A stretch of DNA of 64,000 nt from contig CBDCXM010000009.1 in assembly GCA_965223855.1 (NCBI GenBank), positions 1,280,001 to 1,344,000 on the forward strand, read 5' to 3'. Numbering within the stretch: position 1 is the first letter of the stretch; the number at the start of each line of letters is the position of its first letter. Shown here piece after piece: positions 8,949 to 24,580 of this stretch. Position numbers and translations under genes: made by a program. Under the pieces are notes generated by a model. That model worked only from the letters and a program-made list of their open reading frames with translations, made no database searches and was not told where the DNA came from. This DNA comes from Candidatus Multivoradales bacterium. Its GTDB lineage: Bacteria; Acidobacteriota; Thermoanaerobaculia; Multivoradales; JAHEKO01.

Positions 8949-11021
8949 ATGCAAGCCCTTCGATCCTGCACCGGCGCCTGCCTGCTCGTGCTGCCGCTCG
9001 CCGGGTGCGGTGGCGAGCCGGCCGTGGTCGAGCTGCCGGGCGAGCCGGCGCCGCTCGTGCCGCGCGAGCTCTTCTGGCCCGCCGAGCGATGGTCGGATCT
9101 GCGGCTGAGCCCGGACGGCGAGACGCTGGCGATGCTCGTCGAGAGCGAGGCGCCGGTGGAGCTTCGATGGCTCGATCTGGAGGGCGGTGAGGAGCCGCAG
9201 ACGGTCGAGCTGCCCGGCGCGGGAGAGATCGAGCTCGAAACCTGGTCCGGCGACGCCCTGGTGGTCGCCCGGCGCAACCCGGACGGGGAGCGACGGCTCT
9301 ACGCCGTGAGCTCGCCTTCCCTGGTGCGACCCCTGACACCAGCAGGCGCGCCGGCGCGCCTGCTGGGCGTGGGGGCCGACGGCGCGGCGGTCGTCGGCAT
9401 CGGCGAGCCCGGCGAGGGGTGGCTCGACCCGCATCGGGTCGATCCCGCGAGCGGCGATCGCGACCATCTGCTCGACAACGAGCGCTTCGTCGATTTCGGC
9501 ATCGATCGGGACGGTGATCTGCGTCTCGCCATCGAGGCGACCCGCGCCGGCCGGCCGCGGATGCTGCAGCGCAGCGAAGAGGGCGGCTGGGCGGATCTCA
9601 CGCTGGAGGCGGCCGAGCAGGTGGACGCGGTGACTCTGATCGATCTGGGCGGTCACGGCGAGATCGCTCGCCTGTGGCTGCGGCGCGAGGGCGGCGGCGG
9701 CGCGATCGTGGCGTGGCGCCTGACGTCGGGCGAGACCGACGTGCTCTTCGACGGCGGGGCGGCGGCGATCGCAGGGTGGACCGTCGATCCGGTGGGCGGT
9801 CGCCTGCAGGCGGTGGCGACCGAGGATCCGGCAGCCGGGATCGGCGCCCTGCGGTGGCACCTGCTCGATCCCGCCGTCGCCGAGCCGCTGCGGCAGTTGA
9901 CCGCCAGCCGGTTGACCGCCAGCCCACTGCCCGCCGGCCAGTTGCCCGCCAGCCCGTTGACCGACAGCGCCGCAGCGACCATCGAGCAGCTCGAGCGCAG
10001 CGCCGACGACGAAATCTGGGTCGCCTCTGTGCGCCAGGCCGGCAAGCGCTCCCTCGTGCGCCTCGACCGCCCGACCGGCGAGCGGACGGTGCTCCTCGAG
10101 GCCGTCGTCGCCGACGGGGCACCGAGGCTCCATCGGGCGACACTCGACGGCGAAGGCGCGAGCCTGCGTCTCGACTGGAGCCTGCCGCCGGAGATGGACC
10201 CCAACGGCGACGGGCGACCGGCGAAGCCTCTGCCTGCAGTGGTCCTGCTTGCGTCGGGGCCGTGGCCGGCCGACGACCTCGACTTCGCTACCCTCACGCC
10301 CTGGCTCGTCAACCGCGGTTACGCGGTCGTCCGCCTGACACTGCCGGCGAGCGGCGGCGTCGGCGAGCGCGCCGCTTCGCCTACCGCCGCTCTGGCAGCC
10401 GCGGCCCGGTGGGCGGTCGATCAGGGGGTCGCCGACGAAGAGCGAGTGGCCGCTCTCGGTGGGGGCTACGGCGGCTATCCGGTGCTGGCGGCCTTGGGGG
10501 CCGAGCCGCGCCTGCTCGCGTGCGCCGCCACGGCTGGCGCACCGCCGGACCTCTCCGCCTGGGTCGCCGAGCTGCCACGCGACGAGGGGGCGGCGCTCGA
10601 ACGGCTGCGCGGGGAGCTCGGAGACCCCGACACCCGCGACGGCCGCGAGCGGCTAGAGAAGCTCTCACCCCTCGCCACGGCGGCGGCGGTCGAGCGGCCG
10701 GTGCTGGTCGTGAGAGGCGAAGACGACCGGCGCGCCGGTGGCGCCCCGACCCGCCGCTGGGCGGAAGCGGCGACCTCCGCCGGCGCCCCCGTGAGCTATG
10801 CGGTCGTGCCGGGAGAGGCGTCCGGCTGGCAACGCACCGAATCCCACGTCGCCTTCGCGGCGCTCGTCGAGACCTTCCTCGGCGACTGCCTCGGCGGCCG
10901 CGTCGAGCCGCTCGCGACCGACACCCTGGCGGCGGTCGACATCGAGATCGGCCGCGAGCACCTGGCGTCGCTCCCCACCGGCGGGGCGGTCACGGCAGGA
11001 GCAAGTCGAGGGTCGTCGTAG
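8949..11021 (+). CDS. S9/prolyl-oligopeptidase-fold lipoprotein with degenerate catalytic triad
   Basis: LAGC lipobox, LSPDGETLA propeller start, WLVNRGYAVV, alpha/beta-hydrolase C-terminus. The nucleophile motif reads GGGYGG and the His motif reads GEASGW. Confidence 0.8.
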   Translation: MQALRSCTGACLLVLPLAGCGGEPAVVELPGEPAPLVPRELFWPAERWSDLRLSPDGETLAMLVESEAPVELRWLDLEGGEEPQTVELPGAGEIELETWSGDALVVARRNPDGERRLYAVSSPSLVRPLTPAGAPARLLGVGADGAAVVGIGEPGEGWLDPHRVDPASGDRDHLLDNERFVDFGIDRDGDLRLAIEATRAGRPRMLQRSEEGGWADLTLEAAEQVDAVTLIDLGGHGEIARLWLRREGGGGAIVAWRLTSGETDVLFDGGAAAIAGWTVDPVGGRLQAVATEDPAAGIGALRWHLLDPAVAEPLRQLTASRLTASPLPAGQLPASPLTDSAAATIEQLERSADDEIWVASVRQAGKRSLVRLDRPTGERTVLLEAVVADGAPRLHRATLDGEGASLRLDWSLPPEMDPNGDGRPAKPLPAVVLLASGPWPADDLDFATLTPWLVNRGYAVVRLTLPASGGVGERAASPTAALAAAARWAVDQGVADEERVAALGGGYGGYPVLAALGAEPRLLACAATAGAPPDLSAWVAELPRDEGAALERLRGELGDPDTRDGRERLEKLSPLATAAAVERPVLVVRGEDDRRAGGAPTRRWAEAATSAGAPVSYAVVPGEASGWQRTESHVAFAALVETFLGDCLGGRVEPLATDTLAAVDIEIGREHLASLPTGGAVTAGASRGSS
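9894..9968 (+). repeat. Five imperfect in-frame 15-bp tandem repeats
   Basis: Encodes QLTAS-RLTAS-PLPAG-QLPAS-PLTDS inside the S9-like gene. Confidence 0.75.
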
Positions 11022-11886
11022 CAAAGAGCCAGCAGGCGAGGAGCCCGTTGGCGAGGAAGAAGGCGGCGTTGAGCCGCGACAGGTCTCCCGGCCGCACGAT
11101 CCAGTGCTGGTACGTGAGCAGCAGCGCGCAACCGGCGACGCCGATCCAGTAGAGCGCGCCGAGCTCGAGCGGGTAGGTGCGCGGCAGGAGCACCAGGCAG
11201 CCGAGCATCGCCAGATGAAGCAGGGCGGAGACGACCAGCGCCCCCGTCTCGCCGAGCGCCGCCGGGATCGAGTGGAGCCCCCGCTCGCTGTCGAACTCCC
11301 TGTCCTGGAGCGCGTAGAGAATGTCGAAGCCGGCCACCCACAGGAGCACCGCCGCCCCCAGCAGCAACGGCGTCGCCTCCACCGACCCTCGCACCGCGAT
11401 CCACGCTCCGATCGGCGCCCCGGCGAGCGCCAGCCCGAGCACCAGATGGGCGAGCGAGGTGAAGCGCTTGGTGTACGAGTAGCCCAGCAGCACCACGATC
11501 GCCACCGGCGCGAGCTTCAACGCCAGCGGGTTGAGCCGCCACGCGGCCACCAGCAGCACGGCGAGGCTCACGACGACGAAGACGGCGACGAACGCCGGCG
11601 AGACCTCCCCGGCCGGCAGCGCCCGGTCGGCGGTGCGCGGGTTCTCGGCGTCGATCCGCCGATCCGCCAGCCGGTTGAACGCCATCGCCGCACTGCGCGC
11701 CCCCACCATCGCCACGACGATCCAGCCGACGGTGCTCCAGGCCGGCCACCCCTCCGCGGCGAGGATCATGCCGAGAAAGGCGAACGGCAGGGCGAAGAGG
11801 GTGTGCTCGAACTTGATCATTTCGAGCACGGTGCTGAGCTGACTCCTGTGTTCCTCTGGTTTCAAGGCGATAAGTCCATTTATCAT
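10990..11886 (-). CDS. ubiA: UbiA-family polyprenyltransferase (MqnP-like); 5' end supplied by the inserted element
   Basis: LEMIKFEHTLFALPFA, ARSAAMAFNRLADRRIDAENPRTADR, YSYTKRFT, WVAGFDILYALQD. The true start is uncertain. Confidence 0.9.
   Translation of the reverse strand: MINGLIALKPEEHRSQLSTVLEMIKFEHTLFALPFAFLGMILAAEGWPAWSTVGWIVVAMVGARSAAMAFNRLADRRIDAENPRTADRALPAGEVSPAFVAVFVVVSLAVLLVAAWRLNPLALKLAPVAIVVLLGYSYTKRFTSLAHLVLGLALAGAPIGAWIAVRGSVEATPLLLGAAVLLWVAGFDILYALQDREFDSERGLHSIPAALGETGALVVSALLHLAMLGCLVLLPRTYPLELGALYWIGVAGCALLLTYQHWIVRPGDLSRLNAAFFLANGLLACWLFATTTLDLLLP
11804..11841 (+). repeat. att direct repeat, left copy
   Basis: TGCTCGAACTTGATCATTTCGAGCACGGTGCTGAGCTG; overlaps the dyad GTGCTCGAA-N9-TTCGAGCAC (11803-11829). 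Confidence 0.9.
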
Positions 11887-11949
11887 AGCTGATTACGATC
11901 GACACGGAGTTGGTTCTGGTGCGCCGTGGTACGCTCCTCCTGGAAGCTC

Positions 11950-11971
11950 TAAGGTCACTCTAAGGTCACTC
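11950..11971 (+). promoter_or_regulatory. Tandem 11-bp repeats, putative integrase arm-type sites (left)
   Basis: TAAGGTCACTC twice; related copies lie near the right att. Confidence 0.7.
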
Positions 11972-11988
11972 TGGAGAGGTGCAAGACC

Positions 11989-13266
11989 GTGTCTGGGAGA
12001 ACGACGGGCAAGCGGGTTGGACGCCGGACCGCCATTAGGCTGACGACGCGAAATGTCAAAGCGGCTGTGCATTCGGGTGCATCCTACGGTGAGTCAGCAG
12101 GGGGGGCAAAGCAGGAGATCCTCTGGGATACGGAGGTCCCCGGCTTGGGCCTTCGGCTGTACCCGTCTGGCCGGCGATCGTGGTGGCCTAAGGTATCGGG
12201 TGAATGGTCGCCGGCGCATCGTGACCCTTGGCCCTTTTGGTGTCCTCACTCTGACTGAGGCGCGTGATGACGCAAAGGCGCGACTGGTCGATCTGAGACA
12301 GACGCGGGAGGATCCGCTCGCTAAACCAGCTACAGTCCCGACTGTCAGCGAGGTCGGCATTCAGTACCTCGAGGATCGTAGAACCCGGGTTCAAGTCGTC
12401 TACCCTCGCGTCCTACCGGACCAAGCTCGCGATGCTCGACGAGAGGCTTGCCCGGTTACCGGTGGACTCCATCGAGGTCCGCGACGTGTCCCGAGCCTTC
12501 GCCTGAGTGGACAGAGGCCACGGGTCCTACTGCAGCGAATCAGGCACTGCGATTGCTCGGGGCACTCCTTGACTTCGCGGTGGAGAGGGGCCTCAGAGCG
12601 GCTTCGAGTCCGAACCCAGCCGCCTTGATTGAGAAGAACCCCGAACGACGACGAGGGAAAGAGCTCTCCCGGTCAGAGGATTGACAGGATAGGTCGCGAA
12701 CTTAGACCGGGAACTGGCCTTGCGACCGTCTGCATCCGACACAGTGACCGCGATTCGCCTCCTCATGCTCACTGGTGCCAGACGCCGAGAGATCACGAAC
12801 CTCAGATGGAGTGAAGTTGACCTAGCCAGCGGTTGTTTGAGGCTGGCCGACTCGAAGAGTGGGGCCAAGGTTGTTCCGCTCAGCACGCCCGCGATGAAGC
12901 TGCTTGCTGAGATTACTGAGCAGGACGGGGAGGGCAGGGTCTTCCCTTCGAGGCGCCATGAGGTGGGTTATGCGGTTCAGTACACCTGGAAGAGGGTCAG
13001 AGAGAGAGCCGGATGTGAGGGGGTCAGGCTTCACGACCTCAGGCATACCTTTGTGACGAGGGGGTTGGCAGCCAACTACAGCGAGACCCTAGTAGGCAAG
13101 ATCGTTGGCCACAGATCGGCCGCGTCGACGCGTCGGTACGAACACGTTCAGACGGAGCCGGTTGATCGAGGCTGCTGAGCGAATCGGATCAAGCTTGGCC
13201 GCAGATCTGTCGGGCCGAGAAGGGGCTGAAGTCGTACCGCTTAGGCCGGGGAGAGACGGGAAGTGA
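11989..13266 (+). pseudogene. Tyrosine integrase with N-terminal arm-binding (DUF4102-like) domain, multiply frameshifted
   Basis: LWDTEVPGLGLRLYPSG, YRVNGRRRIVTLG, AANQALRLL, TGARRRE, DSKSG, HDLRH, VGH and RRY are spread over at least four reading-frame segments. Confidence 0.88.
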
Positions 13267-13933
13267 GCGAGAAGCGGAAGGGGCGATCCCAAATCGAACA
13301 GATGTACCTAGCTGGCACGGTGAACTCGAAGGAGATTGTCCAGTACGCGAGACTCGGGGATGACGGAGCGGCTCTTACACTTGCTTGGCTGCTCCGGCGC
13401 GCGCTCATGCACGAATCGCACTACAGCTCGGCCAGTTTTGAGCCTGTTCGCCAGTTTTGGATAGAAGCCCTCTGACCCTGGCTATTCGACCGACGCACCC
13501 GTACCAGACACCGAATTCCCTCTACAAGGACCTCAACAAGGCAGTCGGGCTGACTCGGGGGCCGGGTCGGCGGCCGTACGGTAAAGAGGAGGTGGAGCGG
13601 GATCAACGGGTGACCGAGGCGGTCTTCGAGGAGTTGCTTAGGGGCAATGGGAGGAACAAGGCCTACAAGCTCGTAGCCGAGAGAGGTGAGTGCGCCGGGG
13701 ACGATGACACGGTGCGCAAGATCTTCACTCGCAGCTCCCGCTACGTGACAGAACTCGAGCTCAGGCTGACGTTGCGGGTTAGACAGACTGTGGACGCGGG
13801 TGAGGAACCGGCCCAAGCCTTCAAAGTAGCTGCGGAGTCTCTTGACGTCGATGCCGACGAGGTCGAGAAGATCGTGACACGGGCTTGGCGAGATGATCCA
13901 GGCATCGCCCCTCCGGGGTGGGGGCAAGAATAG
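13263..13933 (+). CDS. Hypothetical island protein(s); ORFs 13263-13475 and 13457-13933 may be one frameshifted gene
   Basis: GTGA coupling to the integrase end; overlapping ORFs; no recognised family. Confidence 0.45.
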
Positions 13934-14038
13934 CGCCGAGTTTCTTCCCTTACCTGGCAGCAAGGCCCCTGCGAGTATCGAGGCACTCAAGCGAAGTTGA
14001 GCGAGCCGCTTCGCAGAACCTCGAAAGGAGTTGCCTTC

Positions 14039-14252
14039 ATGCCCGGTTCAGAGCTGCTTACAACCTGTGAGGCTGCTGATTGGCTCCGGCTGTCACCGCG
14101 AACACTCGAACGCTGGAGGGTGACCGGTGGAGGACCGCCCTATCGGAAAGTCGGATGGAGAGTCCTCTACCATGAGGCCGATCTCTCGCTTTGGCTTTGA
14201 CTCTAGTCAGCGGCGGTCAACCTCAGGCAGGTCGGGCTCGGAAAGAGCGTGA
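14039..14252 (+). CDS. Excisionase-like HTH protein (probable 1-nt indel near 14196)
   Basis: SD AAGGAG; LLTTCEAADWLRLSPRTLERWRVTGGGPPYRKVGWRVLY. Removing one T extends it to WLDSSQRRSTS..., ending in a GTGA overlap with the next gene. Confidence 0.8.
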
Positions 14253-14955
14253 GCCATCCGACGGAAATGCTGGACAGTTCACGAGCAGCCGAATTCGAGG
14301 CTGCAGTGAGGGAGGCACTGGCCCGCAACGAGAGGGCGCTCCGTTCGAGGAGGTCGGGCCGGTTCCTGAGTCCATGCTTCAACTTCGCCCGCGCACTCAA
14401 GGCCTCACCCTCAGCTGATGGGCCTTTCTGGCCGTGATGCGGCCGTTCGAGTGGAGGAGGTCTTGGTTCTCATAGCCGGTGAGGAGTCGGACTGCTCTAT
14501 CTGGCAGACCGTCCTTCCGTGCAAGGACACCCTTGGTAGGGAGATTGATCCCTTCGATGACTTCGTGCATTCGTGGGAGGAGTGTGTCGATCCTGGATGT
14601 GGGCTCTTGGAGTCGGTGGTGGAGTCAGTGCGTCGACAGCCGCCAAGTAGGGGCCGATTCGGCGCCAGTTTCGAGCATCTTTCGATTCGAGAGGTTTCGC
14701 TTCTTCTTGGGCGTTGCCGAGGAACTCCAAGCGAGGAGGCCGGGTCTGACAATTCTCCTGCCCGTGGACAAGCTCGCAGAGCTTTTGGGCACCTCGCCGC
14801 CGCAAGTATCGCGCTGGCGAAGACAGGCGATGCGAGAGGGAGTCCTAATCGAACACAAGCCTGCCAGCCCGGGGCGAGCGACGGAGTTTCTGATGACTTC
14901 GCGTCCAAGAGCTCTGCGAGGTGTTCAACCAGATCGCCAAGACATCTATGACTGA
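14249..14955 (+). pseudogene. Frameshifted gene with C-terminal HTH, possibly replication-related
   Basis: Three consecutive frame segments; last one reads LPVDKLAELLGTSPPQVSRWRRQAMREGVL. Its position after xis is typical of rep genes (inference). Confidence 0.45.
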
Positions 14956-15033
14956 CACTACTGTCAGACCGTCATGAATGCCTGAAGGAAGGGCACTTGA
15001 CTACCTGTCCAGAAAACTTGCAGAGGTAATCAC

Positions 15034-15406
15034 TTGACCCCGAGATGTCGTGCGCTGAACAAGAGGGGGAAGCCATGTGGCATGGCCCCCTTGACGGGAT
15101 CCGGAGTTCTGCTGGACTCATGCCCCTGAGCGCCGCGGGGAGCGAACGGCTGCGCGTCGCCTAGGAGGTGCTCGCCGAGCAACACGTCGGGGAAGCGAGA
15201 GCGACTGGCCGCTCGGATTGACATCTGTTGAGCAGATCTTGAGGCTTCTCGAGGTTGCTGCCGCAGACACGCTACTTCAGGAGAACAGCGCGAGACGAAG
15301 TCGTGCGCTCGTTGCTATTGCGCGAGCAGCGCTGACGGTAGTTGAAGCCAGCGACTTCGAGTGTCGACTTTCCCAGTTGGAAGAGCTGTGCCAGGTGACA
15401 CGGTGA
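15034..15406 (+). pseudogene. Small CCCH zinc-finger/helical protein with one frameshift
   Basis: SD GAGGT, TTG start, RCRALNKRGKPC; one base removed near 15103 gives FCWTHAPE...RRLGG...ECRLSQLEE, in frame with ORF 15218-15406. Confidence 0.5.
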
Positions 15407-15609
15407 GGGCCTCGCAGAGAGTCAGGCTTCACCGGCTAGAGGTGTCCGTGGCCCCTGCCCGGCAGTGTTGTCATGACGTTCTTGTCTACAAGAACCAAGT
15501 ACCTCCGAGAGGTGAGGCAGCTCTATGCCCGATGTGTGGTGGCAATCTAGTCGACTTGGCGCGTGTCTTCCTCCCCGACAACGGGCGGGGAGATCGATTT
15601 CCTGGCTAG
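15403..15609 (+). CDS. Small hypothetical protein with CxxC
   Basis: GTGA coupling; RLHRLE, CPMCGG, FLPDNGR. Confidence 0.45.
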   Translation: MRASQRVRLHRLEVSVAPARQCCHDVLVYKNQVPPRGEAALCPMCGGNLVDLARVFLPDNGRGDRFPG

Positions 15610-15676
15610 GTGGCTGAGGCTGGCGTGTCAAAGTAAGGATCGTTGGTAGGAGAAACCGAGGACCAGGAGCCGGCAA

Positions 15677-17338
15677 GTGCTACTAGACCGCAGGAGTATC
15701 CAAGCTCTCAACGAAGACGACCTGAGGCAGAGAATCCTCATTCCTCTCTTTGTTGCGATGGGGTTCAAGGACGTGAATCACAATCATGGCGCCGCTGAGA
15801 TGGGGAAGGACATTCTCATGTGGAAGGCCGAAGTCGTCCGATCCCGAGTGAATCACGCTGTGGTCGTCAAGGCCGAGCCGATCAACAGCTCAAACAGAGA
15901 GGATGTGCAGTCTCAGATTGAGCAGTGCTTCGGCGTGCCTTTCGAGGACCCAGTGACCGGAGAGGAGAGAGAAGTCGACCGTGTGATTGTGGCTTCGTCG
16001 CGGAAGATCACACCAGCGGCAAGGAAGCAGATTCGAGGGCGACTAGGCTTGACGAACCTCAACGAGCGAGTCGATTTCATCGACGGGCACCTTCTGATGG
16101 AGAAGGTGTCCTCTTTCCTTACGAAGGAGGTGATCTGGGAGTCGATAATGCAGGCCTATAGGGCACTCAACGAGAGCTTCGAGGAGTACAGGTGGGGATT
16201 CCTCGCGAACCCTGATGGAAGTGTAACGGTCTTCATTGGCAATGAACCTGGAGAGCGGGTACTTGAAACTCCAATTGAGCTCTCCGTCGCGGCGCAGTTC
16301 CCTGCCACGGCTGAGGGGGCCAAGAAGCGCCTGGAAGCGTTGCGCCACTTCGAGGAAGGCACGGGTCTCGTGCTTGCCTCAGAGTTCATCACGGACTTCG
16401 AGGTCCCCGACTTCATAAAGACGCTGCAGGCGGATGGCAAGCTCCAAGAAATTCACATGGCGCCGAGCCCGCTTGACCCTCCGATGATTCGATCACTAGA
16501 GCTGAAGGGGAGTAAGGGCACTACCTTGGTTGTCGACTACGTTCACTTTACGCATGTCGCGGCTGGCACCAGGAAAGTCCGAATCACCAATCAAGGGCAG
16601 GTGCTTCCTTGGAGCGTCGAACTCCTTTTTGACAGAGAAACGCCAGATCAGGGCACATTCAGACTCAGCCTAGAGCGAGGCGAGGATCCAATAGATGCAA
16701 GAACTCAGTTTCACCGGCTTCTTCTCTCCGCGATCATGGCGGAGGGGGGACAGCTTGTCGTGCGCGACTGGGAGACGGATATCCCCCAGTTCCGGGTCGC
16801 GTTTTCGGCCAACGGTGAGGAACGCGTGCCCCAGAACGCTCTTGAGATGACGCAAGCGCTGGCTCTTCTTCAGGCTAGGACCGCGACTCTGTTTGAGATC
16901 GATGACGCTACCGAGTTCACCGGTGAGGACTTTGAGACCGCTTTGCGCGCTGCGCAGATTGTCTCGAGTGGGCACTTTGTGTTCACTCGCGGCGCCACGT
17001 TGGATCTGACCCTGGAGGCGCGGGCGGACTCCGAGGAGGGGATCCCTAAGGATGGGGACAATGAAGAGTTCTCGCGGCTCATAGAGGATGACCAAGTCGT
17101 CACTGTGCTGGGAAGGGACATCAGTCTAGGTCCAGCTGTGTTGCTCTATCGTGGCCCGGTTCAGCTGGTGGAAGCCCTGGATGAATGCAAGCCTCCAAAG
17201 GCTGGGAAGTATCGTGTGGTGGCCAGTGAGGCTACGCCTCTTGTCATGGCTTATCCCCATTGGCAAAGCCCCCTCGCAGAACCTCGACCTATTGAGGTGA
17301 CGGCGGCCGACGAGACCGCTGCTCGGGAGGAAGAATAG
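15677..17338 (+). CDS. Mrr-like restriction-endonuclease-domain protein with large uncharacterised C-terminus
   Basis: SD AGGAG; N-terminal E..L...L.PLF.AMGF....HG..E.GKDI...VVVK and VDFIDG..L pattern of Mrr_cat-type nucleases; 553 aa intact. Confidence 0.7.
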   Translation: MLLDRRSIQALNEDDLRQRILIPLFVAMGFKDVNHNHGAAEMGKDILMWKAEVVRSRVNHAVVVKAEPINSSNREDVQSQIEQCFGVPFEDPVTGEEREVDRVIVASSRKITPAARKQIRGRLGLTNLNERVDFIDGHLLMEKVSSFLTKEVIWESIMQAYRALNESFEEYRWGFLANPDGSVTVFIGNEPGERVLETPIELSVAAQFPATAEGAKKRLEALRHFEEGTGLVLASEFITDFEVPDFIKTLQADGKLQEIHMAPSPLDPPMIRSLELKGSKGTTLVVDYVHFTHVAAGTRKVRITNQGQVLPWSVELLFDRETPDQGTFRLSLERGEDPIDARTQFHRLLLSAIMAEGGQLVVRDWETDIPQFRVAFSANGEERVPQNALEMTQALALLQARTATLFEIDDATEFTGEDFETALRAAQIVSSGHFVFTRGATLDLTLEARADSEEGIPKDGDNEEFSRLIEDDQVVTVLGRDISLGPAVLLYRGPVQLVEALDECKPPKAGKYRVVASEATPLVMAYPHWQSPLAEPRPIEVTAADETAAREEE

Positions 17339-17590
17339 GCCGTAGGGCTTGGGTAGTCTGTCTGGGGCCGGTTTCTAGCTAGGTGGTGTTGATGGGTCGC
17401 GGCAGACCTGGGGTGCCTCGGCCTTCTTGGGCTCCAGAAGGAGGAGGGCCGGCTCGTCGGCAGCATTCCAAGAGATCTGTTGATCATTGCCTATAGGATA
17501 GGGCGATGCTCAGGCTGTGGCGGTTGACGCGAGCTCCAAGTAGAGCCGCGCGGTGGCTCCTTGGAGTCCGCGTTGGGATTGGGGTGCCCG

Positions 17591-18730
17591 GTGGATAGAT
17601 CGTCGCGTCCGTCGATTCACGAGCTACCTCCGCTGGAGACGGGGGGCGAGCAGGCGCGCAAAGGGTTCTTCCTGCAAGACCACGTCGCGGCTGGCTTCTG
17701 TATCGACATGCTAGAGGACGACACGCTGGCTCAAGTCTGGTGCGAGAGCCAGGACGACGTAACGTTGATCTGGCAGCGGGGAGGCAAGCAAGAAGAAGTC
17801 GAGTTCGTTCAGGTCAAGAGCGACGAACCAGATCAGCTCTGGACAGTAGCGCGACTCTGTTCTGGGAAGTCAGGTTCTTCGGTGCTGGAGAAGTCGCTCC
17901 AATACGACCGGTGCAAGGAGCAGAGATCCTTCCGTTTGGTCACGTCGTGGCCGGTTTCCCGCGAACTCAGGCCGCTCGAGATGCCATTCGGCAGTCCGGG
18001 GCGGGTTGAAAGCGGCGAGGAGCTAGCCCAGATTGGCGCCAGCTGCGCGAAGAAGCTAACCGACTGTCTCTCCCCGAATGGTAACGACTGCCGCTACTGG
18101 GTGGAGCGCTGTCTGTGGCAAGTCGTTGGCAGAGCGGAGTTGGTCGAAGTACGCAACAAGCAGCGGCTTCGGGAGCTTCTCGAGAAGCGCGACATGATCC
18201 TGCTGAAGGACCAACTGAATAAGGTGTATCGGCAGATACTGCACAAGGTCCAGTTAGCTGCGCTTGCACCAGGCGACGTTGACCCGAGCAAGAAGAAGAT
18301 CCGGTCTGGTGAGTTCGAGACTTGGCTCTTTGCTCGGATTGCAGAGGCAACGGCCCCTCCAGATACAGGCGGAGTCGCCGTGAGAAGGAAGATGCAAGCT
18401 GCCGGTATTGCTGAGGACTTGATTCTCACAGCCGACGAACAGAGATTGGCCTATCGAGCCGCCACACTGTCTCCTGCGTACCACGATCTGACCGGTCGCG
18501 GGCTTGTTGAGAGGGAGACAACCGCCTTGTTGCACCGGCTTAGGGCTAGGCTGGATTCGGGCGCAATCGCTGATGGTGGCCCGCAGTTCCACGACCGCTG
18601 CCTTCAGGGGTTGGTAGGTCTTCGAGACTCGCTTCCTCTAGAGCCGAAGCCCAGTGCCTACGTTGTGGACGGGTTCATGTATTACACCACTGATCGGTGT
18701 CGGCACCGGTTTCTTCCCGAGCCTCTATGA
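17591..18730 (+). CDS. lmuA: Cap4-like (DUF4297) dsDNA nuclease effector of a Lamassu/ABC-three-component system
   Basis: GGEQARKGFFLQDHVA, CESQDDV, EFVQVKS, WTVARL; C-terminal G.MY..TDRC.HRF; first gene of a coupled three-gene operon. Confidence 0.82.
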   Translation: MDRSSRPSIHELPPLETGGEQARKGFFLQDHVAAGFCIDMLEDDTLAQVWCESQDDVTLIWQRGGKQEEVEFVQVKSDEPDQLWTVARLCSGKSGSSVLEKSLQYDRCKEQRSFRLVTSWPVSRELRPLEMPFGSPGRVESGEELAQIGASCAKKLTDCLSPNGNDCRYWVERCLWQVVGRAELVEVRNKQRLRELLEKRDMILLKDQLNKVYRQILHKVQLAALAPGDVDPSKKKIRSGEFETWLFARIAEATAPPDTGGVAVRRKMQAAGIAEDLILTADEQRLAYRAATLSPAYHDLTGRGLVERETTALLHRLRARLDSGAIADGGPQFHDRCLQGLVGLRDSLPLEPKPSAYVVDGFMYYTTDRCRHRFLPEPL

Positions 18731-19290
18731 GAACGCTTCGAGCCTTCGCTGGCCTGCCGTCGACCGCTCTGTTGTCAGCGGATGAGATCTTGGAGTTCCA
18801 TGCTGGGCGGCTGTTGCTACTCCTCAGGGTCGCTGGCACCGCGGGTCGAATCGATGGGCTTACCAAGATGGCGAAACTCGACTTCTTTGTTCGGTATCCA
18901 AGCTTCTTCCAACGAGTTGCCGCGTACAAAGGCTTGGAAGAAGTGCCGGTCTCCGGGAGGCAGGTCGAGTCGAGCATGATCCGTTTCCACTACGGGCCTT
19001 GGGACAAACGCTACTACCACGTGTTGGCCTATCTCGAGGCTCGAGCGCTTATTGAAGTTTCAGACGAGGGGAGCACTCATCGGCTCCAGCTCACAGAGGC
19101 CGGCAAAGCGTTGGCGAACCGGCTTAGAGGGTTGCCAGAGTTCGAGGGCTTGGTGGAGCACATGAAGGTGGTCAAGAGGCTTGTAGGCCGTCTGAAGGGA
19201 TCTACCCTGAAGAACCTGGTTTACGAGGTCTTCAAGAGCGAGGTGGCCCAGCGACGGTTCGGGGAAGTGATCATTGATGGCGAAAGCTAG
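18727..19290 (+). CDS. lmuC: ABC-3C middle component
   Basis: ATGA overlap; RLLLLL, TKMAKLDFFVRYP, MIRFHYGPWDKRYY, LEARALI winged-helix-like pattern. Confidence 0.75.
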   Translation: MRTLRAFAGLPSTALLSADEILEFHAGRLLLLLRVAGTAGRIDGLTKMAKLDFFVRYPSFFQRVAAYKGLEEVPVSGRQVESSMIRFHYGPWDKRYYHVLAYLEARALIEVSDEGSTHRLQLTEAGKALANRLRGLPEFEGLVEHMKVVKRLVGRLKGSTLKNLVYEVFKSEVAQRRFGEVIIDGES

Positions 19291-21193
19291 GCTGACGATC
19301 AAGGAGCTTCGTCGTTCCCCCGAACAGGCGGGGGCAATCGACTCTTTGTCACTTCAGCCAGGTGTCAACGTGTTGGTGGGGCCTCCCAACACGGGCAAGT
19401 CGCAGTGGTTGGAGATGCTCGATCTGTTGCTCGGGCGATCGAAGCCAATCACGGACGTGCTGTCCGAAGACGTTTTGGACGCGTATGACTCTGTTCATGC
19501 TGTCGTCACCGTCGGTGGCCAAGAACTCGAGCTTGAGCGGCGGTTGAATGAGCCGGGGCTAATGAGGAAGGTCATCGTGGATGGGGAGCCCAAGAGCTTC
19601 TCTGAGTTCTCCCATCTCATGTACGACCTGCTGGGCATTCCCCTCGTGCACTACCCGCAAGGGAATCCATACGGTCCTCGAACTTGGCCGGAGCTGAGTT
19701 GGCGAAGCCTCATGAGGCATGCCTACCGTCGGTGGCGATTCTGGTCTGATCTGGCAGATAAGCAACCCGACAGTGAGCAGCACGCTTGTCTGCTGCAGTT
19801 CCTTGGCCTGGCAAGAGAGCTCTTCTCAGCAGAGTACGGGCGGTTGGTGGACAAGGAGAAGGAGCTTCAGGCCACCCGGCTTCAGCGCGAGAGTTTCCTT
19901 AGGATGCTGCAGGAGGTGTCTCAGGACCTCGTCGACGAGGAAGACCTTGGCGTCGCCCTGACCGATGAGTCGCTCGATCGACTGATCGCAGAGATCGAGG
20001 GAGCGATTGAAGAACTCCTCGACGATCAAGATCGGCGACTAAGCGCGTTGCGGGATGCTGCGGCAGAGGCGGTAGGTGAGGAAGATGAGGTCGTGGGCCG
20101 GCTCGTTGAGCAGCTTGCCAATGATCGAGCGAGCGAGGAGAGGCTGGCGGAAGCTCTCGAAGTAGTGAAGGAGAGGCACCAGAGGGCAAGTGAGTATCGT
20201 CAGCTTCTTGTGGAAGAGGTTGAGCGGATGGGGCGTGCTGAAGAGGCGTCGAAGGCTCTCTCTACTATTCAGATCACGCACTGCCCTGCGTGCGATGTCG
20301 AGCTGGAGCCTAGGCGGCTAGGCGGAGAGAGCTGCTTCCTTTGCCACCGTCCGTTGGCCAGCGCCTATGGCGGCGAGCGGGTGGCCCAGAAGAGGCTCGA
20401 GTTTGAGCGCAGTCGCCTGTCGGCGGAGCTGGCTGAGGCCGAGACCCTGCTGGGGTCGATCAGAGGCGAAAGAGAGAGCCTCGAAGCCGAGCTGGGCCGA
20501 GCTAGGGAGAGGGTTCGCAGTGTGCAAGCGCAGCTTGAGCCCGTACGACGCGGGGCCGCCGGTATTCTGCCGGCGGATGTCGGCTTAGCTCATATGGAGA
20601 TGGGACGGATGCACCAGAGACTGGCCCAAGTCAAGCGTGTTCGAGCCAGCCTCAAGAAGCGGGAGAAGCTATCTGAGGAGATCGACCGCCTCGGGAAGCA
20701 GATCGCTGACCTAACGAACGAAGTGAAGAAGCAAAGAGCGGAGTTGGACTACGTCGAGCCGTCGGAGGCGCTTGCCGATGGGATGAACAGCTATCTGAAC
20801 AGAATCCGCAAGACCCGCGAGAATCTCTGGGCGCAGAAGGACGTGAGAATGCTCCTGAACGACCGAGGCTTCGATTTTCACGTCGGGGATAGGAGCTGGC
20901 GCTCGAAGCTTGGAGGGACTTCGACGCTGTTCTTCCTAATTGCGTACCACTACGGTCTCTTGAGCCTGAGCGGCACCCCGGGTAGACACTACCCTGGTTT
21001 CCTGGTCCTAGATTTCCCGGCCGAGCTGGACGACGGGACGAGGGTTCGCGACCAAGAGAACTTCGTGCTAGAGCCCTTTGTTGAGTTGCTCGCAGAGGAC
21101 AGCGAGGCTGCCGGTCAGGTTATTGCTGCGGGGAGCTCGTTCGAGGGGCTCGTAGGGGCCAACCGGGTCGAGTTCACTCGCGTGTGGCGGTGA
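19277..21193 (+). CDS. lmuB: SMC/Rad50-like ABC ATPase
   Basis: Walker A GPPNTGKS, coiled coils, central CPAC...CFLC, degenerate signature LGGT, Walker B LVLDFP. Confidence 0.85.
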   Translation: MAKARLTIKELRRSPEQAGAIDSLSLQPGVNVLVGPPNTGKSQWLEMLDLLLGRSKPITDVLSEDVLDAYDSVHAVVTVGGQELELERRLNEPGLMRKVIVDGEPKSFSEFSHLMYDLLGIPLVHYPQGNPYGPRTWPELSWRSLMRHAYRRWRFWSDLADKQPDSEQHACLLQFLGLARELFSAEYGRLVDKEKELQATRLQRESFLRMLQEVSQDLVDEEDLGVALTDESLDRLIAEIEGAIEELLDDQDRRLSALRDAAAEAVGEEDEVVGRLVEQLANDRASEERLAEALEVVKERHQRASEYRQLLVEEVERMGRAEEASKALSTIQITHCPACDVELEPRRLGGESCFLCHRPLASAYGGERVAQKRLEFERSRLSAELAEAETLLGSIRGERESLEAELGRARERVRSVQAQLEPVRRGAAGILPADVGLAHMEMGRMHQRLAQVKRVRASLKKREKLSEEIDRLGKQIADLTNEVKKQRAELDYVEPSEALADGMNSYLNRIRKTRENLWAQKDVRMLLNDRGFDFHVGDRSWRSKLGGTSTLFFLIAYHYGLLSLSGTPGRHYPGFLVLDFPAELDDGTRVRDQENFVLEPFVELLAEDSEAAGQVIAAGSSFEGLVGANRVEFTRVWR

Positions 21194-21239
21194 TGATGAG
21201 CCAGAGGGCAGGGTTCGTGCTCTGAGGTTGAGCGGGGGT

Positions 21240-22061
21240 ATGCACTTCGACGAGGATCCTGGCGACTACTTTGAGGTGTACGAGGAGCCAGAGCGCCCGC
21301 CGGATCCGCGACAGCGAGAAGCGAAGGAGGAACTGCGAGAGCTCTTCGAGGCAGAGCGGGAGGCAGTCTTCTACGGCCGCCAGCTAGAGGTGGGTCTCGA
21401 GGGTACGTACTTCCACTGGATCACGAATCGAGCACTGCGGGAGCTTGTGGCGGAGGATGCGGTAAAGAGTGAAGAGCGGGAGTTGGCGACGGGCGGGAAG
21501 ATCAAGCTCTACTGGCACCCGAGCAATCGCTACAACCGGAGGGCTGCGAAAAGCGTCACGCAGTTAGTCGAGGAATTCGCGAATCCAGAGGTTGGGCACG
21601 CCTTGGGGATTCAGGGTGAGGCTCTGACGCTCCGTGGGTTCGCCCGGGAGCAGTTCGTGCTGCTGGGAGAGGAGGTGAGTTCCTACGAGGGGCGTGAGTG
21701 GCTAGAGACGGAGCATGACCTCGACTTCGTGTTCGGGCGGGACGATAGCGTGTATGGCGTGGAGGTGAAGAACACTCTCGGCTACATGGATTATGAAGAG
21801 CTCCAGGCCAAGCTGGACATGTGCGATGCGCTTGGGCTAACCCCGGTGTTCGTCGTAAGAATGGTGCCGAAGAGCTGGATCTACGAGGTGCGAACACGAG
21901 GTGGGTTCGTGTTGATACTGAAGTACCAGCTCTATCCGTGGGCGCACAGGGGCCTTGCGAGGAGGGTGCGGGAGACGCTGGGGCTGCCTACGGACTCACC
22001 GCGAGCATTGGAGGACGGCACTATGCAACGATTTGTGAGATGGCATGAGCAGAACGTGTGA
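21240..22061 (+). CDS. Hypothetical PD-(D/E)XK nuclease-fold protein
   Basis: G..GE helix followed by HDLDFVF...YGVEVKN; N-terminal helix-turn-helix-like region. Confidence 0.65.
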   Translation: MHFDEDPGDYFEVYEEPERPPDPRQREAKEELRELFEAEREAVFYGRQLEVGLEGTYFHWITNRALRELVAEDAVKSEERELATGGKIKLYWHPSNRYNRRAAKSVTQLVEEFANPEVGHALGIQGEALTLRGFAREQFVLLGEEVSSYEGREWLETEHDLDFVFGRDDSVYGVEVKNTLGYMDYEELQAKLDMCDALGLTPVFVVRMVPKSWIYEVRTRGGFVLILKYQLYPWAHRGLARRVRETLGLPTDSPRALEDGTMQRFVRWHEQNV

Positions 22062-22209
22062 ATTCTGGCGACAATTCACACAGGGGCGTAGGTAAGTCGT
22101 TTGTTCTGAAGGTTTAACTCCCGCCCCCATTAATACGTAGTCCCTATGTGTCGGTTGGGGGTGGGTGAGGCCAAAAGAGGCATGAGGCTGTGGAGGCCAG
22201 TCTGGACGA

Positions 22210-22231
22210 CGGGTTCACTCTGAGGTCACTC
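22210..22231 (+). promoter_or_regulatory. Tandem putative integrase arm-type sites (right)
   Basis: CGGGTTCACTC-TGAGGTCACTC, matching TAAGGTCACTC at the left end in the same orientation. Confidence 0.65.
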
Positions 22232-22284
22232 GATAGATCATCGATTCGTCTAAACCTCTGATTATTAGCGACTTAGTGTCGATA

Positions 22285-22337
22285 TGCTCGATCTTGATCA
22301 TTTCGAGCACGGTGCGGAGCTGGGCCGGGAACGCCAT
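22285..22337 (-). repeat. att direct repeat, right copy, with displaced ubiA 5' fragment
   Basis: Plus strand TGCTCGATCTTGATCATTTCGAGCACGGTGCGGAGCTG (22285-22322); minus strand from the ATG at 22337 reads MAFPAQLRTVLEMIKIEH. Confidence 0.9.
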
Positions 22338-22527
22338 TGATGAAGCCTACCCGACTTGATTCGACTATCCGGGACGGTGATCGCGGCGGCTCCCAATGCC
22401 GGATTGCTAAAATCCTATTATGTGCTTAACTAGCAAGGCTATGGTGGAATCGAGAGTCTGGCGAGCCTCGAAGGGGGAGAGGCGGTTGGGCGAGCGTCTA
22501 CTGAACCGTGCCTAGGGTGCTGCGATC

Positions 22528-24579
22528 TTGAGTCGAAAAGCACGGGTAGTTCACCTGGCTCTCTTGCTTGCCGTGCTTGTTGGTATCAACTGGTACCTCA
22601 CAGGTTCTTTGCAGTTCCCGACGGGTGACAAGGCCATCTGGTTTCACTCGGGCCTGCTGACGCTGGTTCTCGGCCTCTTCTGGATCGAGCCTCACTTTGC
22701 CAAGCCCTCTGACGTTGCAATCAACGGTCTCGTTGTCTTCGTCGCCACCTCGGTGCTGGAGCAGCCGCCCTACCAAGCTTGGTGGGACGTTGCACGGTAC
22801 TCAGCGGCGGTGCTCGCAATCGCGGCCCTTGTTGTTGTTTGGCTTGGGAGTCCCGCGATTCCCGGCAGTCGCCCGTCAAAGCTCAAGCGTGTCGTCTACC
22901 AAGTTTTAATCCGAGTGGGCAATGCTCGCGTCGTCTTCTCAGGGGTTTTTGTCCTAGCCCTCGTGTCGTACTTCGATCACCAAGCAGTCTCAACTCGTTG
23001 GCTTGTAGCCTTCTGGGCCTTCATCTTGGCCGTGAAACACCTCGAGCTGGAGAGTCTTGCAAGGGCGATCGCGGCGATATGGAGGACCGAGTCGCCATCG
23101 ACCCTTGGGAGCCTTGTGCGATTCGCGGAGCCTGACATTGCGCGATTCCGCCTCGACGGATCGGCAACTTGTAGGAGGGGCGCTTTGATCGGTTTCACCC
23201 GCGACGGCAGGCTCGAGGACGACACTCCGATAGGGTTGTCGTTGGTCACCGAGCCACACCAGAGGCGGTGGAGGCGGAAGCGATCCTGGTCGATCAGTCG
23301 TTCTCCGAGGGCCGTAGAGAGGAGCGGACCGTCGTCGTCAGGATCGATCCGGACGACGAGGTAGTGAAGGACCGGGTCGAGCGCAGCTCAGGTCGGTGGC
23401 TCAACGATGACCTAGTTGGTTTCGCGACACAGCGAAGCAACATCGCCCGCCTCCGATTCGAGATCAACAGGGGTGTCACACTAGAGGAGGGGCACCTTGT
23501 CGAGGCGAGGCCTCGCTCGAGCAGGGCGGTTCTCTTTCAGATCGTCGATGGCGTTCTTCATGAAGAGGCTGCCCTTGAAGGCGGAGAGCGCGCGTACGTG
23601 GTGGGTGAGGCTCAGCAACTGGGAGTTTGGGGCGACGACCAGAAGGGCTTCGTCTCGCATCCATGGGTAGTGCCTGAGAACTGCCCTGTGTATAGGCATG
23701 CCGAGTCCTACGGCATCGACGACAGCGCCAGCGATGACAACATCCGAATAGGTCACGTTCCCAGTTCGAGCTTTTCCGCCAATATCAAGGCCTCGAGCCT
23801 TGTTCTCTACCACTCCGCGATCCTAGGCGTTACCGGTAGTGGTAAGTCGTTCCTGGCGTTCTCACTGGTGGAGAGCTGCGCCGTGGAGGGTGTCAAGGTG
23901 TTGTGCCTCGATTTGACGGGGGACTACGCCCGCTATCTTCCGGGCGCCGTGAGGGTGCCGTCCTTGAAATACGTGACACCCTTTCTGGATGCCCCGGATG
24001 CGTCGGTGGGCATTATCGAGTTCTCCGAGGATGGCAAGAAGCACCCCATTACGTCGACGAAGGAGATCATGGCCGCCGCACTTGCTTGGTGCCGGGCGCA
24101 TCGTTCGGAAGAAGAGGTCCGCGAACCGAAAGCAAAGGTGCTCTTGGTGTTGGAGGAGGCCCATTCGCTTGTGCCGGAGTGGAACGCGAACCCAACGAGA
24201 TCGCTTCAGGACACGGTCAACGAGACTGCTCAGATGGTCCTTCAAGCAAGGAAGTATGGTCTCGGCGTCATGGTCGTTACGCAGCGCACGGCTAACGTGA
24301 CAAAGAGCATCTTGAATCAGTGCAACACCATCTTTGCTTTCCAGGCGTACGACGAGACAGGCTTCGAGTTCATGAAAAACTATATGGGCGATCACCACGT
24401 AAGGGCGCTGCCGAACTTGAGGAAGAGACACGGTGTCGTGGTTGGCAAAGCGTCGAGGTCCGACCGCCCCCTGATCGTGCGAATGAAAGAGCAGGCTCGT
24501 AAGCCAGCGACGAAGGAGCTACCTGTCTTCGCGCTCGGGGACGATTCAGGGGTCAGCTGCGGAAGGCGAGGAGACTTGA
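22528..24579 (+). CDS. Membrane-anchored HerA/DUF87-family ATPase (reconstructed across two G-run indels)
   Basis: About 190 aa multi-TM N-terminus; HAS-barrel-like region; Walker A ILGVTGSGKS, Walker B LEEAH, QARKYGLG..VTQRTA, ILNQCNT. +1 G at 23233-23235 joins the two ORFs; -1 G at 24549-24552 gives a stop at 24577-24579 (as sequenced it reads on to 24827). Confidence 0.78.
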
Positions 24580-24580
24580 G

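What the first reader, a model, noticed from the sequence alone, without database searches (positions are those of the whole stretch)
11803..22337. Integrative element that targets the 5' end of ubiA/mqnP and supplies a replacement N-terminus
Seen: 38-bp repeats at 11804-11841 and 22285-22322. The right copy lies in a stranded start, MAFPAQLRTVLEMIK. The left junction keeps ubiA open with island-derived ...EEHRSQLSTVLEMIKFEH, and an AGGAG lies upstream of a possible GTG start. The target is a natural dyad, GTGCTCGAA-N9-TTCGAGCAC, encoding the conserved LEMIKFEH motif. Established: tyrosine integrases use dyad cores, and some elements restore 5' ends of protein genes (SXT at prfC). I do not know of a menaquinone prenyltransferase gene reported as a target. 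Inference: expression of a respiratory gene now depends on island sequence.
Basis: partly seen in the sequence, partly recalled or inferred. Interest (0 to 1): 0.72.

Follow-up and report, generated by a model that had tools for sequence, protein, structure and literature searches.

The report
Mobile island rewrites ubiA gene start
A 10.5-kb mobile island carrying an anti-phage system sits inside the first codons of a menaquinone-pathway prenyltransferase gene and gives it a new start; related islands use the same site in other Acidobacteriota, which makes this a new target gene for a known integration strategy.

Summary
Two 38-nt direct repeats (36/38 identical) at 11804-11841 and 22285-22322 bound a low-GC 10.5-kb island. 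The island holds a P4-type tyrosine integrase, an excisionase-like HTH protein and a Lamassu defence system. The left repeat lies in codons 16-28 of a UbiA/MqnP-like gene on the minus strand. Its first 15 codons are island DNA. A 40-codon stub with the displaced start (MAFPAQLRTVLEMIK...) sits at the right repeat.

- None of 19 orthologues in relatives has the island-type N-terminus.
- Every integrase at least 58% identical to this one, where flank is available, lies divergently beside the ubiA 5' end. The only exceptions are two circular 8.55-kb metagenome contigs that carry attP.
- None of 55 more distant integrases lies there.
- Mismatches place strand exchange in the 9-nt spacer of the dyad GTGCTCGAA-N9-TTCGAGCAC.
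- Five decayed elements have lost most or all of the integrase, yet ubiA keeps the island-born start.

Caveats: the window's integrase needs at least 4 frame changes, two of which short-read contigs contradict. The promoter and the true start codon are unmapped. The stub may not be the native start.

This works like SXT at prfC and the dusA-specific elements, with a new target gene and a new integrase clade.

The parts
10990..11886 (-). Hybrid UbiA/MqnP-like prenyltransferase gene (298 codons if ATG 11886 is the start). The body is chromosomal; codons 1-15 are island DNA.
   Evidence: PF01040 E 1.5e-59. TIGR01475 scores 306 bits against a cut-off of 180.8; the MqnP models score below their cut-offs. 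Orthologues are 69-80% identical.
11842..11886 (-). Island-derived leader, codons 1-15 (MINGLIALKPEEHRS). Candidate starts are ATG 11886, TTG 11865 and, inside the repeat, GTG 11829.
   Evidence: This leader is absent from all 19 orthologues.
11804..11841 (.). attL: the left copy of the 38-nt repeat. The exact 23-nt block 11812-11834 contains the crossover.
   Evidence: The mismatches at 11811 and 11835 have the chromosomal-type base on the chromosomal side of each copy.
11801..11827 (.). Core dyad GTGCTCGAA-CTTGATCAT-TTCGAGCAC, made by the codons VLE-MIK-FEH.
11887..11988 (.). 102-nt divergent region between the hybrid ubiA start and the integrase start. The promoters of both genes are presumed to lie here but are not mapped.
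   Evidence: no sigma-70 consensus match.
11944..11971 (+). Tandem arm-type-like repeats (two AGGTCACTC 11 nt apart), just upstream of int.
   Evidence: family D5; this 9-mer occurs 3 times in the 64-kb window, all at the island ends and on the same strand.
11989..13178 (+). P4-type tyrosine integrase (Arm-DNA-bind_3 plus Phage_integrase). In the window it is read in at least 4 successive frames.
   Evidence: PF13356 E 1.4e-6 and PF00589 E 2.3e-22. Frame map by tblastn with the intact 432-aa relative. Short-read contigs lack one base at 12390 and at 12502. The catalytic R, HxxR, H and Y are conserved.
13997..14200 (+). Excisionase/AlpA-like HTH protein (candidate recombination directionality factor).
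   Evidence: PF12728 HTH_17 E 1.1e-9. phrog_66 'excisionase and transcriptional regulator' E 3.1e-7.
15677..17338 (+). 553-aa cargo protein with a weak Mrr_cat-like N-terminus.
   Evidence: PF04471 E 0.0015, below the cut-off. No padloc, NCBIfam or PHROG hit.
17561..18730 (+). Lamassu LmuA-like effector with a Cap4-type nuclease domain.
   Evidence: PF14130 E 1.8e-28. padloc HamA/LmuA models, E down to 1.4e-54.
18697..19290 (+). LmuC-like protein.
   Evidence: padloc LmuC E 1.2e-12.
19274..21193 (+). LmuB-like SMC/ATPase.
   Evidence: padloc LmuB E 9.7e-32. Weak AAA_15 and SMC hits.
21228..22061 (+). 277-aa cargo protein with no family.
   Evidence: No hit in Pfam, NCBIfam, padloc or PHROGs.
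22212..22231 (+). Arm-type-like repeat at the right end (GGTTCACT then AGGTCACTC).
22285..22322 (.). attR: the right copy of the 38-nt repeat.
   Evidence: An 8986-nt short-read contig covers 15570-23500 with no differences, so the integrated right junction is independently assembled.
22215..22337 (-). Stranded 40-codon stub holding the displaced ubiA start (MAFPAQLRTVLEMIK...).

Best explanation
A 10.5-kb integrative genomic island sits in a Thermoanaerobaculia (Acidobacteriota) metagenome-assembled genome. Its tyrosine integrase recombined a site on the element (attP) with a chromosomal site (attB) inside the first conserved motif of the UbiA/MqnP-like prenyltransferase gene. That motif, the codons V-L-E-M-I-K-F-E-H, happens to form a 9-9 dyad with a 9-nt spacer.

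Shown:
- Strand exchange falls in or next to that spacer.
- The gene body is now joined to island DNA that keeps the frame open and offers a start codon plus 15 new codons.
- The old start sits 10.5 kb away as a stub.
- Close relatives of the integrase use the same site. One relative exists as a free circle carrying attP.

Inferred:
- The hybrid gene is transcribed from the 102-nt region it shares, back to back, with int. That region also holds the arm-type repeats.
- The hybrid protein works.

The island's cargo is a Lamassu anti-phage system. No transfer genes were seen, so any movement between cells would need a helper.
For: Structure of the island:
- The repeats exceed chance.
- GC drops across the island.
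- int lies next to attL and has an Arm-DNA-binding domain and a catalytic domain.
- An HTH_17/excisionase-like gene is present.
- The 9-mer AGGTCACTC occurs only 3 times in 64 kb, all at the two island ends.

Target specificity:
- 19 of 19 orthologues lack the island leader.
- 109 non-self integrase loci were examined (29, 80). Of these, 65 have at least 600 nt upstream of int.
- Eight of the 65 carry ubiA there, all from the clade at least 58% identical to the window's integrase. One of the eight, L108, has the length and coordinates of G230:C137 and is taken as the same contig.
- Two of the 65 are attP circles.
- Fifty-five of the 65, all 51% identical or less, have no ubiA there.

Related elements:
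- Second core copies with stranded native-type starts lie 6.3-7.8 kb away in G232, G265 and L107.
- Contig L105 has a 30-nt terminal overlap and is a circular permutation of the G232 island. L106 is 99.98% identical and is permuted differently.

Crossover: in L107 and in the window the mismatch pattern places exchange within CTTGATCAT and within 11812-11834 respectively.

Function of the new start:
- In genus g85, 8 of 30 ubiA loci have the island-type leader. Four of the eight have lost most or all of int and have only one core copy within about 18 kb, yet ubiA is intact. A fifth such locus is L067.
- The island-type state needs 7 changes on the ubiA tree, at least 4 of them forced by well-supported branches.
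Against: - The window's integrase needs at least 4 frame changes. Only two of them are contradicted by short-read contigs, at 2-3x depth. The element may therefore be immobile here.
- No promoter-like site was found in 11700-12200, and no Shine-Dalgarno-like motif precedes ATG 11886. Neither the start nor the promoter is established.
- No close relative of this exact element was found. The nearest integrase is 74% identical and has a different leader.
- The low-GC accessory DNA continues for about 5 kb beyond attR. The 'native' nature of the stub and its upstream region is therefore not proven.
- The neighbouring mqnE gene is split by a frame change in the window. This could be an assembly error, or the pathway could be decaying.
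- No listed contig piece was shown to bridge attL.
Confidence: 0.88

Rival explanations
1. Fossil island. The same integration happened, but the element is now dead in this genome: the integrase is a real pseudogene, and the hybrid ubiA start is a fixed, domesticated remnant, as in the decayed g85 loci.
For: At least 4 frame changes in int. Decay with retention of the island-born start is documented in G257, G258, G236, G243 and L067. No attB or attP joint was reported when the contigs were laid.
Against: At 12390 and 12502, two of the frame changes, short-read contigs lack one base, which would restore the frame there. The window also differs by single bases at 14196 and 15101, and mqnE is split, so the assembly has indel errors. 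Both att copies, the arm repeats, the Xis-like gene and all catalytic residues are intact.
Confidence: 0.3
2. Tandem accretion. The stub at attR (MAFPAQLR...) is not the native start. It is the leader of an older element of the same kind, whose integrase was lost and whose remaining cargo is the low-GC block 22.3-27 kb. The present island then inserted into that older element's attL.
For: Low GC and same-strand ORFs continue from 22323 to about 26.5 kb. The HerA-like gene there has a homologue in only 1 of 299 other genomes of the order. An attL keeps the full core and so stays a target. Decayed elements without int exist.
Against: No third core copy in the window at up to 3 mismatches in 23 nt. 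tblastn with an intact relative finds integrase only at 12010-13160. No arm-type 9-mer lies beyond 22231. Native leaders in the genus are too variable to decide.
Confidence: 0.2
3. The hybrid gene is inactive. Integration knocked out ubiA, and the open frame is kept only because the event is recent.
For: No promoter or Shine-Dalgarno match. mqnE next door is split in the window.
Against: In the related element type the island-born leader is kept with an ATG and an open frame in all 11 sequences aligned, attP included. ubiA also stays full length in lineages where the island has decayed. The other UbiA-family matches in this genome are 27-34% identical to this gene over their matched stretches. 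The attP sequence itself encodes the in-frame leader.
Confidence: 0.07

Closest known systems
dusA-specific integrative elements (Farrugia et al. 2015, as cited; IMEVchUSA3 in Durand et al. 2021, PMC8409611, abstract and passages read)
   Same: [quoted passage not shown]
   Different: The target is a membrane prenyltransferase of the menaquinone pathway, not a tRNA-modifying enzyme. The hosts are Acidobacteriota. The new promoter was shown experimentally for dusA and is only inferred here. Relatedness of the integrases was not tested.
SXT/R391 ICEs at prfC (described in PMC8409611 passages; otherwise recalled)
   Same: [quoted passage not shown]
   Different: SXT is a large conjugative element. 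This island has no transfer genes among the ORFs scanned and is only 10.5 kb; its relatives are 6.3-8.6 kb.
P4-type integrase islands at tRNA genes (recalled)
   Same: An Arm-DNA-binding N-terminal domain plus a catalytic domain, arm-type repeats, int at one end next to att, and an attP that carries a copy of the end of the target gene so the gene stays whole.
   Different: The target is the 5' coding end of a protein gene, so a start codon and promoter must be supplied, not a 3' end. The closest annotated phage integrases are only about 30% identical.
Lamassu defence systems (PADLOC models)
   Same: LmuA (Cap4-type nuclease), LmuC and LmuB homologues in one operon.
   Different: This concerns the cargo only and is not part of the integration mechanism. 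Function was not tested.

Membership tests
Tyrosine recombinase / phage integrase (PF00589) | Catalytic domain with the conserved R, HxxR, H and Y residues | tested here: met
   PF00589 E 2.3e-22. R21, H105, R108, H131 and Y140 are invariant in alignment A2.
Tyrosine recombinase / phage integrase (PF00589) | One uninterrupted reading frame | tested here: inconclusive
   At least 4 frame changes in the window. Contigs lack a base at two of them. The other two are not covered by a listed piece.
P4-type integrase | N-terminal Arm-DNA-binding domain (PF13356) | tested here: met
   E 1.4e-6, 28.8 bits against a cut-off of 27.
Site-specific integrative element | Flanking direct repeats (attL and attR) that share a core with the empty site in relatives | tested here: met
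   For the related element type, attB, attP, attL and attR were all recovered.
Site-specific integrative element | An excised circular form or an empty site in the same population | tested here: inconclusive
   Not seen for the window's element at 2-3x depth. Seen for the 59%-identical type as circular contigs L105 and L106.
Integrative and conjugative element (ICE) | Relaxase, coupling protein and type IV secretion genes | tested here: not met
   None among the island ORFs scanned with Pfam, NCBIfam, padloc and PHROGs. ORFs under about 60 aa and two small ORFs were not scanned.
MqnP (menaquinone prenyltransferase of the futalosine pathway) | Score above the NCBIfam MqnP model cut-offs | tested here: not met
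   MqnP_DT 308.9 bits against 430; MqnP_SCO4491 269.9 against 420; MqnP_Cj_Hp 250.8 against 375. Only the subfamily model TIGR01475 passes.
MqnP (menaquinone prenyltransferase of the futalosine pathway) | Linkage to futalosine-pathway genes | tested here: met
   An MqnE homologue (TIGR03700 E 5e-77 for the C-terminal half) lies at 7689-8844, about 2 kb beyond the 3' end of ubiA. The arrangement is syntenic in relatives.
5'-end-restoring elements (SXT/prfC and dusA type) | The element supplies an in-frame start and new N-terminal codons | tested here: met
5'-end-restoring elements (SXT/prfC and dusA type) | The element supplies a working promoter for the target gene | not testable with these tools
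   The consensus scan was negative.
Lamassu | LmuA effector, LmuB SMC-like ATPase and LmuC together | tested here: met
   padloc hits on three adjacent genes.

The most novel reading that the evidence does not exclude
This integrase clade has repeatedly and sometimes irreversibly rewired the start of a respiratory quinone-synthesis gene in Thermoanaerobaculia. After the island decays, its leader stays as the gene's only start.

While the island is intact, the integrase's arm sites lie in the same roughly 100-nt divergent region as the new ubiA start. Integrase occupancy or excision could then set the level of menaquinone prenyltransferase. That would make it a mobile-element-controlled switch on host respiration, not a neutral 'safe harbour'.

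Serial insertion into the regenerated core could also build the accessory block to the right of attR.
Probability: 0.15. Interest if true: 0.7.

Novelty: new member of a known kind. Interest (0 to 1): 0.5.

Why it matters
It adds a new protein-gene target, a UbiA/MqnP-like prenyltransferase, and a new integrase clade to the short list of elements that enter the 5' end of a gene and rebuild it. It does so in Acidobacteriota, where mobile elements are little studied.

attB, attP, attL and attR were all recovered for one element type, and the crossover is narrowed to a 9-nt spacer. That gives a ready-made, testable integrase/att pair for a phylum that lacks genetic tools.

The decayed copies show that an island-born gene start can become the host's permanent start. 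This is a concrete route by which mobile DNA reshapes a core metabolic gene.

Genome annotators should expect two kinds of N-terminus for this gene, and a stray 40-codon stub.

Tried and rejected
Searches that added little:
- A 20-nt core pattern with up to 3 mismatches was run in 300 genomes of the order. It was too noisy to count duplicated sites. Among the rows listed, only G000 has two copies with 1 mismatch or fewer, and 339 matches were not listed.
- The search for related loci on genome contigs with alignment A1 returned only the four known loci plus L067. It used two peptide patterns, so it was not a broad survey.
- A phylum-wide search with A1 at E <= 1e-75 matched 0 of 401 genomes. 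G000 itself did not match and there was no positive control, so this says little.
- Sigma-70 and terminator scans of 11700-12200 and 22150-22650 found nothing.

Reads:
- Laying the contigs of runs X1 and X2 gave no joints, so there is no sign of attB or attP. Island depth is only 2-3x. Both runs come from one sample, which may be the source of the assembly. This neither supports nor argues against excision.
- A loose end at 11843 belongs to another organism's native ubiA start, not to this strain's attB.

Synteny:
- blastn and tblastx of five relatives' ubiA regions against the window found no conserved synteny on the upstream side of ubiA. The empty site of this strain could therefore not be rebuilt.
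- The second ubiA 5' piece in G002 (C398) looked like another att copy. It sits at a contig end beside a sigma factor and a kinase, with its own leader. I read it as a second strain or contamination.

Literature:
- No paper naming ubiA or mqnP as an integration target was found.
- The TIGER paper (NAR 2020) is not held.
- Supplements, where lists of target genes would be, are closed. The target may be listed there.

Other checks:
- Phage-record and PDB sequence searches with the intact relative gave only distant integrases (about 30% identity, XerD-like).

Considered and rejected:
- A chance repeat.
- An ICE (no transfer genes).
- A tRNA-linked island: the only tRNA in the window is at 889-965.

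Full report
WHAT IS IN THE SEQUENCE

The two repeats are real. They lie at 11804-11841 and 22285-22322, are 38 nt long with 36/38 identical, and start 10481 nt apart. Their inner 23 nt are identical. With up to 3 mismatches this block occurs nowhere else in the 64-kb window, and 0 copies are expected in shuffles.

Between the repeats GC is 0.57-0.63. On the left flank it is 0.70-0.78.

The left repeat lies inside a minus-strand gene, 10990-11886, of the UbiA prenyltransferase family (PF01040, E 1.5e-59).
- The gene passes the NCBIfam subfamily model 'UbiA-like polyprenyltransferase'. It scores below the cut-offs of all three MqnP models.
- An aminofutalosine synthase (MqnE) homologue lies about 2 kb beyond its 3' end.
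- I therefore call it MqnP-like, not MqnP.

The frame is open for only two codons above ATG 11886. It reads MINGLIALKPEEHRS, then QLSTVLEMIKFEH.

The right repeat lies in a 40-codon stub on the same strand, 22337-22215, which begins MAFPAQLRTVLEMIK and then runs into island DNA.

It is formed by the codons VLE and FEH.

THE ISLAND

An integrase lies just right of attL, divergent from ubiA. It has an Arm-DNA-binding domain (PF13356) and a tyrosine-recombinase catalytic domain (PF00589). The remaining genes, in order, are:
- small HTH proteins, one of them HTH_17/excisionase-like;
- a 553-aa protein with a weak Mrr-like hit;
- a Lamassu set, LmuA with a Cap4-type nuclease domain, LmuC and LmuB;
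- one protein with no family.

No relaxase or secretion genes appeared among the ORFs scanned, so this is an integrative island, not an ICE.

The 9-mer AGGTCACTC occurs three times in the whole window. Two copies are 11 nt apart just upstream of int, and one is about 60 nt inside attR. All three are on the same strand. That is the layout expected of arm-type integrase sites.

IS THE INTEGRASE BROKEN?

Against an intact 432-aa relative, the window's integrase aligns over its whole length but in four successive frame changes.

Two public runs from one sample hold the region as short-read contigs.
- Contigs of run X2 lack one base at 12390 and one at 12502. These are two of the four frame changes, and the direction would restore the frame.
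- The same contigs differ by one base at 14196 and at 15101.
- An 8986-nt contig matches 15570-23500 without any difference and spans attR.
- The mqnE gene is also split by one frame change.

I conclude that the assembly has local indel errors, so the state of the integrase is open. The depth is only 2-3x, and the sample may be the one the genome came from. This is weak evidence, and it is not independent of the assembly.

DO RELATIVES WITHOUT THE ISLAND HAVE THIS N-TERMINUS?

They do not. Of 41 genomes searched, 39 have a UbiA match. I read the 5' ends of the best 19 non-self loci. All have a short variable leader followed by (Q)L(R/S)TVLEMIKFEH or a near variant, and none has the MINGLIALK leader. 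One of the 19, G005, is an unpublished genome, and the result does not depend on it.

The part the island replaces is therefore the naturally variable leader. The crossover site is the first conserved motif.

ARE HOMOLOGOUS INTEGRASES NEXT TO ubiA?

They are, and only the close ones.

In 300 genomes of the order, 74 have a match to the catalytic fragment at E <= 1e-25.
- The four best hits are 60-61% identical, in G269, G232, G265 and G230, all of one genus in another family. Their integrases are intact 432-aa proteins, 91-94% identical to each other.
- In all four, ubiA lies divergently just upstream. None of the other 25 loci fetched has ubiA.

A metagenome scan returned 80 more loci.
- ubiA is adjacent in L103 and L104 (74% identical integrases) and in L107 and L108 (59%). 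L108 has the length and coordinates of G230:C137.
- L102 (74%) is too short to tell.

Pooling the 109 non-self loci, 65 have at least 600 nt upstream of the predicted int start:
- 8 carry ubiA;
- 2 are attP circles (next section);
- 55, all 51% identical or less, do not carry ubiA.

Record titles place the hosts in Acidobacteriota, Thermoanaerobaculia.

att SITES AND THE FREE FORM

In G232, G265 and L107 a second core copy lies 6.3-7.8 kb from the first. Beside it sits a stranded start of the type that is native in that genus, MRP(L/F/I)RTLSTVLEMIK.

Contigs L105 and L106 carry the same integrase type but no ubiA. In them the core is flanked on one side by the sequence found inside attR and on the other by the sequence found inside attL. 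That arrangement is attP.
- L105 is a whole 8581-nt contig with an exact 30-nt terminal overlap.
- It is a circular permutation of the integrated G232 island.
- L106, from another assembly, is 99.98% identical and is permuted differently.

The related element therefore exists as a free circle.

Where attB and attP differ, the hybrid sites place the exchange. In L107 it lies between the A/T difference just left of CTTGATCAT and the T/C difference just right of it, which is within the 9-nt spacer. In the window it lies between 11812 and 11834.

The related elements also have tandem arm-type repeats (GCTGACA...GCTGACAC) at both ends.

DOES THE NEW START WORK?

This is not shown directly. No sigma-70 consensus match was found in the 102-nt divergent region. 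ATG 11886 has no Shine-Dalgarno-like motif. AGGAG lies 13 nt before the in-frame GTG 11829, and TTG 11865 is a third candidate.

The indirect evidence is good.
- In the related type, the island leader (MT[AT]K..Q[SI]R and variants) keeps an ATG and the frame in all 11 sequences aligned, including attP.
- Of 30 ubiA loci in that genus, 22 have the native leader and 8 the island leader.
- Of those 8, four have intact integrases, two keep only 25-28 codons of int, and two keep none.
- The four decayed loci have a single core copy within about 18 kb, so the native start is gone there, yet ubiA is full length. L067 is a fifth such case.
- On a tree of the ubiA body, the island-type state needs 7 changes, at least 4 forced by well-supported branches. 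Gains, losses or both have therefore been repeated. This is a single-gene tree of metagenome-assembled genomes, so the number is rough.

WHAT LIES RIGHT OF attR

Low GC and same-strand ORFs continue to about 26.5 kb. They comprise a membrane protein, a HerA-like ATPase and a 397-aa protein with no family. The HerA-like gene has a homologue in only 1 of 299 other genomes of the order.

The DNA beside the stub is therefore itself accessory. It may be the remains of an older insertion at the same core, in which case the stub would be an older island leader and not the native start. I found no third core copy, no integrase remnant and no arm motif there, so this stays a minority reading.

COMPARISON WITH WHAT IS KNOWN

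The strategy is known. Passages of Durand et al. 2021 (PMC8409611) state that dusA-specific elements insert in the 5' end of dusA. [quoted passage not shown]

What is new here:
- the target gene;
- the integrase clade, whose closest annotated phage integrases are about 30% identical;
- the host phylum;
- the observation that the island-born start outlives the island.

My four literature searches found no report of ubiA or mqnP as an integration site. The large island catalogues and their supplements could not be seen.

VERDICT

I file it as a new member of a known kind, of moderate interest. The open points are the integrity of this copy's integrase, the true start and promoter of the hybrid gene, and whether the stub is native.

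Noticed in passing
window 7689-8844 (minus strand): The aminofutalosine synthase (MqnE) homologue is split into two frames near 8269-8297. This is either an assembly indel or a broken menaquinone-pathway gene.
   Followed up: partly
window 12390, 12502, 14196, 15101: Short-read contigs of run X2 lack one base at each place relative to the window. By contrast, 15570-23500 matches an 8986-nt contig exactly. The indel errors seem local to 12-15 kb.
   Followed up: partly
window 22528-26134: A low-GC accessory block lies outside the att-bounded island. It holds a 278-aa membrane protein, a HerA-like ATPase (padloc HerA E 6.9e-29) and a 397-aa protein with no family. The HerA homologue occurs in 1 of 299 other genomes of the order. 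It may be a second defence islet.
   Followed up: partly
L105 (whole 8581-nt metagenome contig) and L106: A circular 8.55-kb element carries attP, the integrase, a DUF3631 P-loop protein, an HTH/small-terminase-like protein and a DpnII/MboI-like nuclease domain protein. The gene content was read from the matching integrated copy in G232. It resembles a small satellite or plasmid-like element.
   Followed up: partly
G258 locus L099, upstream of ubiA: An internal deletion removed the arm repeats and about 110 nt of the int-ubiA spacer but kept the first 28 int codons and the island leader. G236 keeps only about 45 nt of island DNA above the ATG.
   Followed up: partly
G115, contigs C2, C29 and C36: Three identical near-core 20-mers (3 mismatches to the pattern) lie on three contigs, besides the ubiA copy. 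They may be a repeated element and were not examined.
   Followed up: no
G002:C398 (L021) 2276-2455: A second ubiA 5' end with its own leader sits at a contig end, next to an ECF sigma factor and a Ser/Thr kinase. It is probably a second strain in the bin.
   Followed up: partly
G012:C3:241544-242403: The ubiA orthologue is read in two overlapping frames, which is a frameshift or an assembly error.
   Followed up: no
window 11842-11860 compared with G003 and G014 native leaders: The island leader reads ...HRSQLS. Native leaders of two relatives read ...RRSQLA and ...PRSQLR, with similar DNA. The attP side therefore looks like a captured ubiA 5' end from another host.
   Followed up: partly
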